Shown here: piece after piece, positions 62,067 through 63,444 of the stretch | Numbering within the stretch: position 1 is the first letter of the stretch | How the letters are laid out: every line of letters starts with the position of its first letter | Origin: an uncultured cyanobacterium | GTDB lineage: Bacteria; Cyanobacteriota; Cyanobacteriia; PCC-9006; JAAUQQ01 | DNA: 64,000 nt | Assembly: GCA_963718615.1 (NCBI GenBank) | Contig: OY970368.1 | Coordinates: 4,896,001 to 4,960,000 of the forward strand | Direction of reading: 5' to 3' | Made by a program: the position numbers and the translations under genes | Notes under the pieces: model-generated | What the model was told of the DNA's origin: nothing | What the model saw: only the letters and a program-made list of their open reading frames with translations | The model's database searches: none

Positions 62067-62175
62067 GGCGGTATGGGTGCAGAAAATGGCAAGCGGTCAG
62101 TCTAGGCTGGCTTTAGCTTACAGAATTTCTTCCAGAATTTCTTCCAGAACTTCGGGTCTTGGGTGCAGAGAGGGG

Positions 62176-62400
62176 GCGATCGCTCCAACCCCCTTGCCCT
62201 CAGACGTCGTGCAACGGCTTATCGAAGATGGCAGAATCACTATGCCAAAGTTATGGAGGGATTACAGAGAGCTTTGAATGTGCAGAGATTAATACACAAC
62301 TGGGTCAGACCTCATGGTCGCTTTACTCAGAAGAAGACCACCCCTGCCATGGCTATGGGATTGATCGATAGGCCGCTGGCGATCGCAGAGATCCTTACCC
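62176..62400 (+). pseudogene. C-terminal fragment of an IS1-like transposase
   Basis: ALRRRATAYRRWQNHYAK..GLQRAL.VQRLIHNWVRPH..TTPAMAMGL..RPL; no N-terminal or DDE part, no IS ends seen. Confidence 0.7.
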
Positions 62401-62518
62401 CAATGGCAGCGGCAGCCTTTATTCAGCAGCCCTATGCCCCAGAGGCGGTGCTTTTGCGGAGGTGGGATGATTTAGCCAAGGAGCCCCAGGCCCCAACCCC
62501 AGTCCTTGAGCATTTCAT
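62401..62518 (+). pseudogene. 3' fragment of a PhnZ-like HD-domain oxygenase, interrupted at 62518/62953
   Basis: AAAFIQQPYAPEAVLLRRWDDLAK..PTPVLEHF; the frame continues IPILQTCL once 62519-62952 is removed. Confidence 0.6.
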
Positions 62519-62952
62519 CTAATCCTCCGAGAGACCCCTGGCTTTAGCCATGGGGAGGGATAGGAGCGCGACCGTGAGGGAGCAATTTGTGTTTCGCCCC
62601 AGAAGCTAAGACCTAAATCTACAAAATTTTTATGGAGCATAGCTTTCAACTATTCTAGAGTGGGTATGGAAAGCAAAAACCAAGCTTTCCCTTGCACCTT
62701 GAAAACTGAAGTTATGGGGTTCTGGTCAGGAATGCTTGGCCAGGTAAAAACTTCAAGCAACGAGTAGATGTCTTAGAGACACCGTACCGTGGGGCTCACG
62801 GAATCGGACCTCTGCAAAGGGGTGAAAGCCTGTGGACTTGAGTAAGACGGGAACATAGCAACGTTTGTTGTGGTGTACGCATCGTGAATGAAACAGGAAA
62901 TCTTTGGAGCGATCCGGAGAATCCCCCGGTTTCAACCGTGGGGAGTAGTCAA
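62519..62952 (+). mobile_element. Non-autonomous IS200/IS605-family element (434 bp, PATE-like) with probable omegaRNA scaffold
   Basis: Left end: target TCAT (62515-62518), guide GAGA, hairpin CCCCTGGCTTTAGCCATGGGG. Right end: guide GAAT, hairpin CCCCCGGTTTCAACCGTGGGG, terminal TCAA. No tnpA or tnpB ORF, no target duplication. Confidence 0.88.
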
Positions 62953-62967
62953 TCCCATTCTCCAAAC

Positions 62968-63444
62968 ATGTCTGCAAACCCCTCAGCCTCGCTCGATGCC
63001 GAAGCGCTAACGCTACGCCCTGCCACCCCAGACGATTTGCCCCTGTTGATCGAGCTTTATGCGGCCATGGATGGCGAAGCGCCCTTGGCCCTAGGAGCGG
63101 TTGAAGCAGTTTTTCAGCAAATTCAGGCCATTCCCCACGCTCAAATTTATCTGGCTGCTTTGGGTCCAGACGTGGTGGGAACGTTCACGTTGTTACTGGC
63201 CCCGACCATGATGCACCGGGGAATTCATCGGTTTGCCTTGCTGGATGCGGTGACGGTTTTACCGCAGTTTCGCGGTCAAGGGATGGGCAAGGCGATGGTT
63301 GTAGCCGCACTCCATTTGGCCCAGGAGGCGGGTTGTTATAAGTTGATGTTGTCGTCGAATTTGCAACGCGATCGCGCCCACGCGTTCTACCGTTCCCTTG
63401 GCTTTGAACAGCACGGTTGGAGTTTTAGTCTAACAATATTCTAA
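62968..63444 (+). CDS. GNAT family N-acetyltransferase
   Basis: LRPATPDDLP, acetyl-CoA motif V.PQFRGQGMG, GCYKLMLSSN..R..AHAFYRSLGF; ATG 62968 (the ORF-track start lies inside the mobile element). Confidence 0.9.
   Translation: MSANPSASLDAEALTLRPATPDDLPLLIELYAAMDGEAPLALGAVEAVFQQIQAIPHAQIYLAALGPDVVGTFTLLLAPTMMHRGIHRFALLDAVTVLPQFRGQGMGKAMVVAALHLAQEAGCYKLMLSSNLQRDRAHAFYRSLGFEQHGWSFSLTIF

What the first reader, a model, noticed from the sequence alone, without database searches (positions are those of the whole stretch)
62519..62952. Non-coding IS605-type element that looks like a mobile, stand-alone TnpB guide-RNA cassette
Seen: both ends follow the IS608-type guide/cleavage pairing rule (GAGA with TCAT on the left, GAAT with TCAA on the right) and have intact subterminal hairpins. 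Excision restores an open frame (..EHF|IPILQTCL). The 434 bp encode no TnpA or TnpB. The right ~200 nt keep a tnpB-3'-end-like stretch (ACCGTGGGGCTCACGGAATC..GCCTGTGGA..ATGAAACAGGAA..GAATCCCCC) with hairpins such as CCTCT-GCAA-AGGGG. The left part carries a further hairpin, CTGGTCAGG-AATG-CTTGGCCAG. Established: in IS605/IS1341 elements the omegaRNA overlaps the tnpB 3' end and right end, and its guide is the 3' flank. Inference: the element moves using TnpA in trans and expresses an RNA with guide TCCCATTCTCCAAACATGTC, programming a trans-encoded TnpB against the empty TCAT-adjacent allele. That would matter in a polyploid cyanobacterium. The guide also spans the start codon of the downstream GNAT gene.
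Basis: partly seen in the sequence, partly recalled or inferred. Interest (0 to 1): 0.8.

Follow-up and report, generated by a model that had tools for sequence, protein, structure and literature searches.

The report
Protein-less transposon carrying a guide RNA
This 434-base mobile element encodes no protein but carries a conserved structured RNA related to the guide RNA of the TnpB nuclease, so it probably borrows both its transposase and its nuclease from other elements in the genome.

Summary
Window 62519-62952 is a non-coding IS200/IS605-type element. A second copy (98.4%) has other flanks; both follow TCAT and end in TCAA.

Its right 254 nt (62699-62952) form a structured RNA. It is shared by protein-less elements in 12 cyanobacterial genomes: 42 predicted pairs, 26 with compensatory changes, 0 of 500 shuffles as good.

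A covariance model built only from these protein-less elements finds six firm places in this genome:
- the two copies;
- the 3' ends of two intact tnpB genes;
- two tnpB remnants.

The RNA is therefore an omegaRNA homologue. The two intact tnpB-only elements share its TCAT flank, TCAA end and left end.

Contigs from RNA libraries of three studies hold 97-99% identical copies. One runs 71 nt past the right end. This is weak evidence of expression.

Still inferred:
- use of TnpB in trans;
- mobilisation, since no TnpA element with matching ends was found;
- the transcription start.

The idea of omegaRNA-bearing protein-less elements is already in print (Meers 2023). What is new is a widespread, old cyanobacterial lineage with a remodelled 5' domain. 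Interest is moderate.

The parts
62515..62518 (+). TCAT flank: insertion site, and presumed TAM of the empty site
   Evidence: Precedes both E copies and both T copies. The X8 contig's identity to the window starts at 62515.
62519..62952 (+). Element E: a 434-bp non-coding IS200/IS605-type element
   Evidence: Second copy at 98.4% with other flanks. No TnpA or TnpB match. The ends are a direct repeat, with no TIR or DR.
62531..62555 (+). Left-end DNA guide GAGA (62531-62534) and bulged hairpin (62535-62555)
   Evidence: DNA fold. 59 of 68 left-end bases match the resident tnpB element T, with a different but still pairing stem.
62699..62952 (+). 254-nt structured RNA scaffold, an omegaRNA homologue
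   Evidence: Alignment A1 of 13 protein-less elements: 42 pairs, 26 compensatory. Controls. Model R1 gives 222 bits here and hits tnpB 3' ends.
62707..62755 (+). 5' domain of the RNA: helix 62707-62713/62749-62755 enclosing hairpin 62721-62729/62736-62744
   Evidence: Helices 2 and 3: 5 of 7 and 6 of 9 pairs changed on both sides. In tnpB-encoded relatives, coding sequence stands in this place.
62782..62823 (+). Central hairpins (62787-62791/62797-62801 and 62808-62812/62819-62823)
   Evidence: Helices 4-6, 8 of 13 pairs compensatory. The first is also present in tnpB 3' ends.
62919..62952 (+). Right-end DNA guide GAAT (62919-62922), bulged hairpin (62923-62943) and terminal TCAA (62949-62952)
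   Evidence: DNA fold. Helix 8 (5 of 6 pairs compensatory). All 13 relatives end in GTCAA.
62953..62972 (+). Flank that would serve as the guide (16-20 nt)
   Evidence: By position, as in omegaRNAs. Unique in the genome; the nearest other site has 1 mismatch and no TCAT. Spans the ATG at 62968.
62968..63444 (+). GNAT acetyltransferase gene, 15 nt downstream of the element
   Evidence: Pfam PF00583, E 5.5e-14.
62163..62522 (+). Upstream ORF, a gene remnant whose stop codon lies inside E
   Evidence: No Pfam match. Its last 41 aa match positions 131-171 of 179 of TIGR03276, E 7e-9. The X8 contig's homology breaks at 62395.

Best explanation
E is a non-autonomous IS200/IS605-family element, a protein-less 'PATE'. 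Its only cargo is a gene for a roughly 254-nt structured RNA that is homologous to the omegaRNA (guide RNA) encoded at the 3' end of tnpB.

Shown:
- It has transposed. There are two copies, after TCAT, with the family's end architecture.
- Its RNA structure is kept by compensatory changes across protein-less relatives in 12 genomes.
- The RNA is homologous to tnpB 3' ends.
- The genome holds two intact copies of a tnpB-only element (T) with the same TCAT flank, the same TCAA end and a near-identical left end.

Inferred:
- The RNA is transcribed towards the right end and runs 16-20 nt into the flank.
- It is loaded by a TnpB made elsewhere, most likely that of T.
- If E is excised, the complex cuts the rejoined TCAT-plus-flank site, so that recombination with another chromosome copy puts E back.
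- A Y1 TnpA supplied in trans does the excision and insertion.

E therefore depends on two borrowed proteins.
For: 1. Boundaries, TCAT and TCAA.
2. End architecture: direct repeat of guide plus hairpin; hairpins.
3. Flank and left guide vary together across relatives. In some searches, TCAT goes with G-A-x-A before the hairpin in E, T, P, G139, G089, G248 and G214. TTAC goes with AAAG in G177, G290, G105, G154, G232, G033 and F. In the resident tnpA element, CTAC goes with AGTG.
4. RNA structure: 96.6% of cells paired against 77.8% in shuffles. 26 pairs are changed on both sides, against 16.0 +/- 2.1 in shuffles and 5-10 in slid controls. 0 of 500 shuffles reach any of the five measures.
5. 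Homology to omegaRNA: R1 was built from protein-less elements only. It matched seven places in this 6.1-Mb genome: E1, E2, both T tnpB 3' ends (30.7 and 30.5 bits, whole-genome E about 2e-5), two truncated tnpB remnants (56 and 48 bits) and one weak site. All alignments cover model positions 1-265.
6. In other genomes, 11 of 29 best-hit loci have a tnpB ORF ending inside the hit. Five of these are at 56-78% identity to T's TnpB.
7. T's TnpB is intact: Pfam OrfB_IS605 and the Cas12f1-like TNB domain, NCBIfam guided_TnpB, and E 1.7e-86 to a solved ISDra2-type TnpB chain. The DLG, EDL and DRD motifs are kept in the alignment printed, which was with 9yyg.
8. RNA-library contigs at 97-99% identity cover 62681-62952 plus 7 nt (X1), 62598-62820 (X2), and 62776-62952 plus 71 nt of another flank (X3).
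9. TnpB works with an omegaRNA supplied in trans in E. coli (figure legend seen). PATEs 'often encode omegaRNAs' that would need TnpB in trans (Meers 2023 discussion).
Against: 1. No RNA data exist for this organism. The laid contigs come from other samples, and the tool warns that DNA can be present in RNA libraries.
2. No consensus promoter or terminator lies in or around E. The extended -10 seen in relatives is not intact in E1. The X2 contig starts upstream of the expected start.
3. T's own omegaRNA region is a distant match to E's RNA: 30.7 against 222 bits. It matches 21 of 90 and 35 of 99 bases in the 5' and middle RNA segments. It lacks E's 5' domain. Cross-loading is therefore uncertain.
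4. An intact T-clade TnpB (68% identity or more, no stop) was found in only 6 of the 11 genomes that hold high-scoring protein-less elements.
5. No TnpA-bearing element in the genome has a TCAT flank or E-type hairpins.
6. The two copies differ at 7 sites, so the last transposition is not very recent.
7. The helix joining the 5' end to the last bases before the guide is invariant, so it is unsupported by covariation (helix 1).
Confidence: 0.65

Rival explanations
1. Relic. E is a non-autonomous transposon whose internal RNA gene was once functional in the lineage. In this genome it is silent or unusable, with no matching TnpB and a decayed promoter. It persists only as selfish or neutral DNA.
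For: - No promoter-like site, and the -10 of relatives is disrupted in E1.
- Only two copies, which differ at 7 sites.
- The resident TnpB's own RNA is a distant relative.
- Decayed relatives exist in the same genome: F, P and a solo right end.
Against: - All eight helices are intact in E1 and E2.
- None of the four E1/E2 differences inside the RNA (positions 244, 354, 375, 393) falls in a predicted helix.
- Near-identical copies occur in RNA-library contigs of three studies.
Confidence: 0.17
2. TnpB-independent role. The conserved RNA, or transcription leaving the element, has been taken over for something else. It might be a regulatory small RNA, or a mobile promoter for the gene downstream of the right end.
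For: - Both copies sit just upstream of a co-directional gene, at 15 nt and 42 nt.
- 5 of 11 genomes with such elements lack an intact T-clade TnpB.
- The copy in G031 has no recognisable left end and no GAAT before its right hairpin, so it looks immobile, yet it scores 211.8 bits.
Against: - Across 13 loci there is no consistent orientation towards a downstream gene.
- The RNA keeps the omegaRNA layout up to the exact transposon end.
- No Rfam family matches.
Confidence: 0.1
3. The conserved helices serve transposition as single-stranded DNA (extra TnpA-binding or folding signals). On this reading there is no RNA gene.
For: IS200/IS605 transposition uses folded single-stranded DNA (passage seen). 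Helix 8 is the right-end hairpin itself.
Against: - Seven further helices lie up to 250 nt from the end.
- The resident tnpB element T and the tnpA elements lack the 5' domain.
- The same region is the omegaRNA in tnpB elements.
Confidence: 0.05

Closest known systems
omegaRNA-encoding palindrome-associated transposable elements (PATEs) of IS200/IS605, as noted in Geobacillus stearothermophilus (Meers et al. 2023, bioRxiv 10.1101/2023.03.14.532601; passages seen)
   Same: - No protein gene, with left and right ends of the family.
- Carries an omegaRNA that would have to be used by a TnpB encoded elsewhere.
- Mobilised by TnpA in trans.
   Different: - The paper gives one sentence and an extended-data figure that I could not see; no structure or distribution is described in the passages seen.
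- Here the RNA lineage is old: 12 genomes across many families.
- It has a compact two-helix 5' domain where tnpB elements have coding sequence.
- In 6 of 12 members it has a TGnTAnnnT motif just inside the left end.
- E is not a deletion derivative of the resident tnpB element.
omegaRNA (reRNA) of IS605/IS1341 TnpB, e.g. ISDra2 (Nakagawa et al. 2023, PMC10097598; passages seen)
   Same: - Lies at the right end and ends at the transposon boundary, with the guide taken from the flank.
- Multi-stem scaffold.
- The bases just before the guide are predicted to pair with the 5' part, as in the ISDra2 pseudoknot.
   Different: - The scaffold is 254 nt, against 116 nt resolved in ISDra2.
- It does not overlap a tnpB ORF.
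- The pseudoknot-like helix is only predicted and is invariant.
- No Rfam family matches.
The resident tnpB-only IS (T), 1,321 bp, two copies (genome 4763344-4764664 and 1852035-1853355)
   Same: - TCAT flank, TCAA end and GAGA/GAAT guides.
- 59 of 68 left-end bases and 50 of 65 right-end bases match.
   Different: - T encodes a 395-aa TnpB.
- Its hairpin stems differ in sequence.
- Its RNA region matches E's only distantly (30.7 bits).
Stand-alone omegaRNA loci reported for IscB/IsrB systems (Altae-Tran et al. 2021; recalled, not read here) and the hypothesis that a stand-alone tracrRNA arose by splitting an omegaRNA
   Same: A guide-RNA gene physically separated from its nuclease gene.
   Different: - Those are IscB-type RNAs at the other end of the element.
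- E is of the TnpB type and is itself a mobile unit.
Classical cyanobacterial MITEs such as Nezha (Delihas 2011, PMC3184786; passages seen)
   Same: Short, non-coding and multi-copy, moved by a transposase in trans.
   Different: Nezha has terminal inverted repeats and direct repeats. E has neither.

Membership tests
IS200/IS605 non-autonomous element (PATE) | Inserts 3' of a fixed tetranucleotide, with no terminal inverted repeats and no target duplication | tested here: met
   Both copies follow TCAT and their flanks are otherwise unrelated. The ends form a direct repeat, not an inverted one, and no flanking repeat was found.
IS200/IS605 non-autonomous element (PATE) | Imperfect subterminal hairpins on the same strand at both ends | tested here: met
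   Minimum-energy DNA folds show 8-9 bp stems, each with a one-base bulge. The energies are not better than shuffles. The right hairpin has 5 of 6 pairs with compensatory change. The left stems of E and T differ but both pair.
IS200/IS605 non-autonomous element (PATE) | A four-base DNA guide 5' of each hairpin matches the cleavage site (IS608 rule; the rule itself is recalled, not read here) | tested here: met
   Under the recalled pairing scheme, TCAT/GAGA and TCAA/GAAT fit at 3 of 4 positions. Flank and guide change together across relatives.
IS200/IS605 non-autonomous element (PATE) | No transposase or nuclease gene | tested here: met
   PF01797 and the T TnpB searches of the genome give no match inside either copy. 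The ORFs are short.
IS200/IS605 non-autonomous element (PATE) | Mobilised by a Y1 TnpA in trans | not testable with these tools
   Seven strong Y1 TnpA genes are present. Their elements have CTAC-type flanks and other hairpins.
TnpB omegaRNA | Homologous to the 3' end and right end of tnpB elements, on the same strand, ending at the transposon boundary | tested here: met
   R1, built without tnpB sequences, aligns over its full length to the T tnpB 3' ends and to two tnpB remnants. It also hits 11 of 29 loci in other genomes where tnpB ends inside the hit.
TnpB omegaRNA | Conserved secondary structure | tested here: met
   26 of 42 pairs are compensatory; 0 of 500 shuffles reach the observed values; slid controls give 5-10 pairs.
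TnpB omegaRNA | Pseudoknot-like pairing of the bases just 5' of the guide with the 5' part of the scaffold | tested here: inconclusive
   A three-pair helix between columns 2-4 and 322-324 is predicted and kept in 12 of 13 sequences, but it never covaries.
TnpB omegaRNA | Transcribed across the right end into the flank | tested here: inconclusive
   One RNA-library contig (X3) runs 71 nt past the end of a 97.7% identical copy, and X1 runs 7 nt past. These are contigs only, from other samples, and DNA carry-over is possible.
TnpB omegaRNA | Bound by TnpB and directs TAM-dependent DNA cleavage | not testable with these tools
   No tool here models RNA with protein.
Any Rfam family | Reaches a family's score | tested here: not met
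   Four matches, E 2.2-8.6, all far below gathering scores.

The most novel reading that the evidence does not exclude
E belongs to an ancient lineage of transposons made of guide RNA only. These elements carry their own promoter and a streamlined omegaRNA freed of coding sequence. They live as hyperparasites on both the TnpA and the TnpB of other insertion sequences. They would then be a natural, free-standing, mobile guide-RNA gene, a living analogue of the step from omegaRNA to a separate tracrRNA or CRISPR guide. Immobilised copies, such as the G031 locus without a left end, may have been taken over by the host as fixed guides.
Probability: 0.3. Interest if true: 0.75.

Novelty: new variant of a known kind. 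Interest (0 to 1): 0.52.

Why it matters
- It shows that selection keeps a guide-RNA structure for long periods without the nuclease gene in cis. This bears on how guide RNA genes became separated from TnpB/Cas12-type nucleases.
- It gives a natural example of a shortened, non-coding omegaRNA design. The segment that in tnpB elements codes for the zinc-finger region is replaced by two short helices. This is of practical interest for engineering compact TnpB guides.
- It flags an unannotated RNA family. Model R1 hit 63 of the 151 class genomes searched, and no Rfam family covers it.
- For this genome, it predicts a testable dependence of one selfish element on two others.

Tried and rejected
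- Rfam scan of 62300-63200 at E up to 10: only four chance-level matches.
- Consensus promoter and terminator scan of 62400-63100: none.
- A −10-like hexamer in E at the place seen in relatives: not intact.
- Reading the RNA region as a small protein: rejected. E's frame stops after 35 aa. Relatives differ by gaps that are not multiples of three. The changes are compensatory in stems.
- Preferred orientation upstream of a gene: no pattern in 13 loci.
- Off-target sites of the four guides (E1, E2, T1, T2): each has one exact site, its own flank. The only one-mismatch site of E1's guide has no TCAT.
- E as a simple deletion derivative of T: rejected.
- E as a Nezha-type MITE: rejected.
- Thermodynamic support for the end hairpins: not significant. 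The whole RNA gives z -2.17, with 6 of 200 shuffles as good.
- A first motif scan for left ends was too loose: 932 hits, mostly GCGATCGC-like. It was replaced.
- Parts of 62300-63300 without cover in the RNA runs (both flanks), and the runs with small shares that I did not lay, say nothing.
- Literature: I found no description of this cyanobacterial family in the searches. Supplements and extended-data figures, for example the PATE figure of Meers 2023, were not seen and may bear on novelty.

Full report
**What is there.** Window 62519-62952 (genome 4958519-4958952) is a discrete 434-bp unit.
- A second copy at genome 637246-637679 differs at 7 positions. It shares nothing with the window outside the unit except the TCAT just before it, and both copies end in TCAA.
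- A 1,344-nt contig of run X8 holds the unit with both flanks different, breaking at 62515 and 62952. A contig of X3 leaves the window at 62952.
- The two ends are a 29-nt direct repeat (76%) made of a four-base motif plus a hairpin. There are no terminal inverted repeats and no target duplication.
- As single-stranded DNA, both ends fold into 8-9 bp stems with one bulged base. The energies alone are not better than shuffles.
- No TnpA (PF01797) or TnpB match lies inside either copy.
- This is the anatomy of a protein-less IS200/IS605 element.

**Relatives in the same genome.**
- Two copies of a 1,321-bp tnpB-only element (T) differ at 9 positions. They have the same TCAT flank, the same TCAA end and the same GAGA and GAAT motifs. 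Their left end matches E at 59 of 68 bases.
- Their hairpin stems differ from E's but still pair.
- T encodes a 395-aa TnpB with all three Pfam domains. It matches a solved ISDra2-type TnpB chain at E 1.7e-86, and the three acidic motifs are kept in the alignment printed, which was with 9yyg.
- The genome also has six copies of a tnpA-plus-tnpB element with a CTAC flank, a further tnpA/tnpB element, a diverged protein-less element F with a TTAC flank, a 147-bp mini element P, and a solo right end.
- Across these and the relatives below, the flank tetranucleotide and the four bases before the left hairpin change together. This is what the IS608 guide rule predicts. I recall that rule and did not read it here.

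**The RNA.**
- BLAST and nhmmer found the inner part of E in other cyanobacterial genomes.
- Twelve loci were taken. None has a TnpB match by tblastn with four TnpB queries from this genome at E up to 1e-3.
- Eleven of the twelve were aligned with E1 and E2 from the first conserved base to the transposon end (A1, 13 rows). The G232 locus was left out because an insertion interrupts it.
- RNAalifold predicts 42 pairs in eight helices, and 26 pairs have changes on both sides.
- For that structure, 96.6% of cells pair, against 77.8% in shuffles. No shuffle of 500 reaches any of the five measures. Sliding the partners by 1-3 columns leaves 5-10 compensatory pairs.
- The structure was derived from the same alignment, and the sequences are related. 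These controls therefore overstate the case somewhat, but the margin is large.
- The last bases before the flank are predicted to pair with the first bases of the RNA. This resembles the pseudoknot of the ISDra2 omegaRNA (passage), but the helix never varies, so it is unproven.

**Is it an omegaRNA?**
- Model R1 was built only from the protein-less elements.
- In the whole 6.1-Mb genome it matched seven places: E1, E2, the last 217 nt of both T copies (30.7 and 30.5 bits), two truncated tnpB remnants (56 and 48 bits) and one weak site. Each alignment covers the whole model.
- In 151 genomes of the class, 63 had a match at E up to 0.001.
- Of the 29 best-per-genome loci fetched, the 7 scoring 94 bits or more have no tnpB. 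Of the other 22, 11 have a tnpB ORF that ends inside the match, five of them at 56-78% identity to T's TnpB.
- The RNA is therefore homologous to the omegaRNA region of this TnpB clade.
- The alignment of E with tnpB-encoded versions shows shared parts: the start, the central hairpin, the block before the right end, and the right end itself.
- E's two-helix 5' domain stands where tnpB elements have 60-90 nt of coding sequence.

**E is not a fresh deletion product of T.**
- By segment, E's left end is closest to T.
- Its RNA is closest to protein-less elements of other genomes: 70-78 matches of 90-99, against 21 and 35 for T.
- Its right end is about equally close to both.
- Protein-less copies are multi-copy elsewhere: at least 8 identical-scoring copies in G105 and 5 in G139.
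- This looks like an old RNA-only lineage whose ends track those of the resident tnpB element.

**Expression.**
- No run of this organism's RNA was on offer.
- Contigs from RNA libraries of three studies match E at 97-99%: 62681-62952 plus 7 nt (X1), 62598-62820 (X2), and 62776-62952 plus 71 nt of a different flank (X3).
- This is compatible with an abundant small RNA that crosses the right end.
- However, contigs cannot show starts, ends or strand. DNA can be present in such libraries, and X2 begins upstream of any proposed start.
- In 8 of 12 family members a TAnnnT hexamer lies about 40-60 nt before the RNA, just inside the left hairpin. Six of these are preceded by TGn. E1 has no intact version, and the consensus scan finds no promoter.

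**Partners.**
- T's TnpB is the only intact TnpB in the genome whose own RNA region is recognised by R1.
- An intact T-clade TnpB was found in 6 of the 11 genomes with high-scoring protein-less elements: G000, G031, G139, G214, G154 and G248.
- G105 has one with a stop codon. G089, G033 and G177 reach only 41-43% identity. G017 has nothing at E up to 1e-60.
- No TnpA element with E-type ends was found.

**Flanks.**
- E1 ends 15 nt before the ATG of a GNAT gene.
- E2 ends 42 nt before a co-directional ORF.
- Across 13 loci there is no rule.
- The upstream ORF ends in a stop codon supplied by E. Only its last 41 aa match a known family, the C-terminal part of an HD-domain profile. The 'restored frame' therefore concerns a gene remnant.

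**Known or new.**
- Meers et al. (2023) state that PATEs 'often encode omegaRNAs' that would need TnpB in trans.
- Zedaveinyte et al. (2023) show TnpB working with an omegaRNA supplied in trans (figure legend).
- I found no description of this cyanobacterial family, its structure or its 5' domain. Supplements were not seen.

**Verdict.** The finding is real and correctly read in outline. Mechanistically it is ordinary for the field, but it documents a widespread, structurally distinct and unannotated RNA-only branch.

Noticed in passing
genome 4121375-4121521 (- strand), outside the window: A 147-bp mini element P. It is 80% identical to E positions 1-146, is flanked by TCAT, and ends in a right-end-like hairpin plus ...GCAGTCAA. 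It has no RNA part. It may be an even smaller mobile derivative.
   Followed up: partly
genome 4259915-4260359 (+ strand), outside the window: A diverged protein-less element F of similar length, with a TTAC flank and AAAG before its left hairpin. nhmmer gives E 1.5e-5 over E positions 7-428. It is not hit by R1 at E up to 1.
   Followed up: partly
genome 2238587-2238625, outside the window: A solo perfect palindrome made of an E-type right-end hairpin and its terminal bases.
   Followed up: no
genome 366868-366897, outside the window: An 18-nt exact identity with the junction of E1's right end and its flank, in otherwise unrelated sequence. About 2e-4 such matches are expected by chance in this genome. 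Unexplained.
   Followed up: partly
window 62163-62522: The upstream ORF is a composite remnant. Its last 41 aa match the C-terminal part of the HD-domain profile TIGR03276 (E 7e-9). The homology of an X8 contig breaks at 62395. E's first bases supply its stop codon.
   Followed up: partly
L046 (G033:C125), about 1496-1560: A 65-nt stretch like the RNA's 5' domain lies at the start of a truncated ORF that looks like a group II intron reverse transcriptase (YADD motif).
   Followed up: no
L032 (G031:C1), 1505-1756: A high-scoring copy of the RNA (211.8 bits) has no recognisable left end and no GAAT before its right hairpin. It is possibly an immobilised copy.
   Followed up: partly
genome 799777-800332 and 4300678-4301117 (- strand), outside the window: Two 5'-truncated tnpB remnants (44% identical to T over 104-142 aa). 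Their RNA regions score higher with R1 (56 and 48 bits) than those of the intact T copies.
   Followed up: partly
window 62897-62909 and 62960-62972: 13 nt of the RNA scaffold are 85% complementary to E1's own guide region, which could compete with target pairing.
   Followed up: no
whole genome: GCGATCGC occurs 8,800 times against about 93 expected. I recall that this is typical of cyanobacteria.
   Followed up: no
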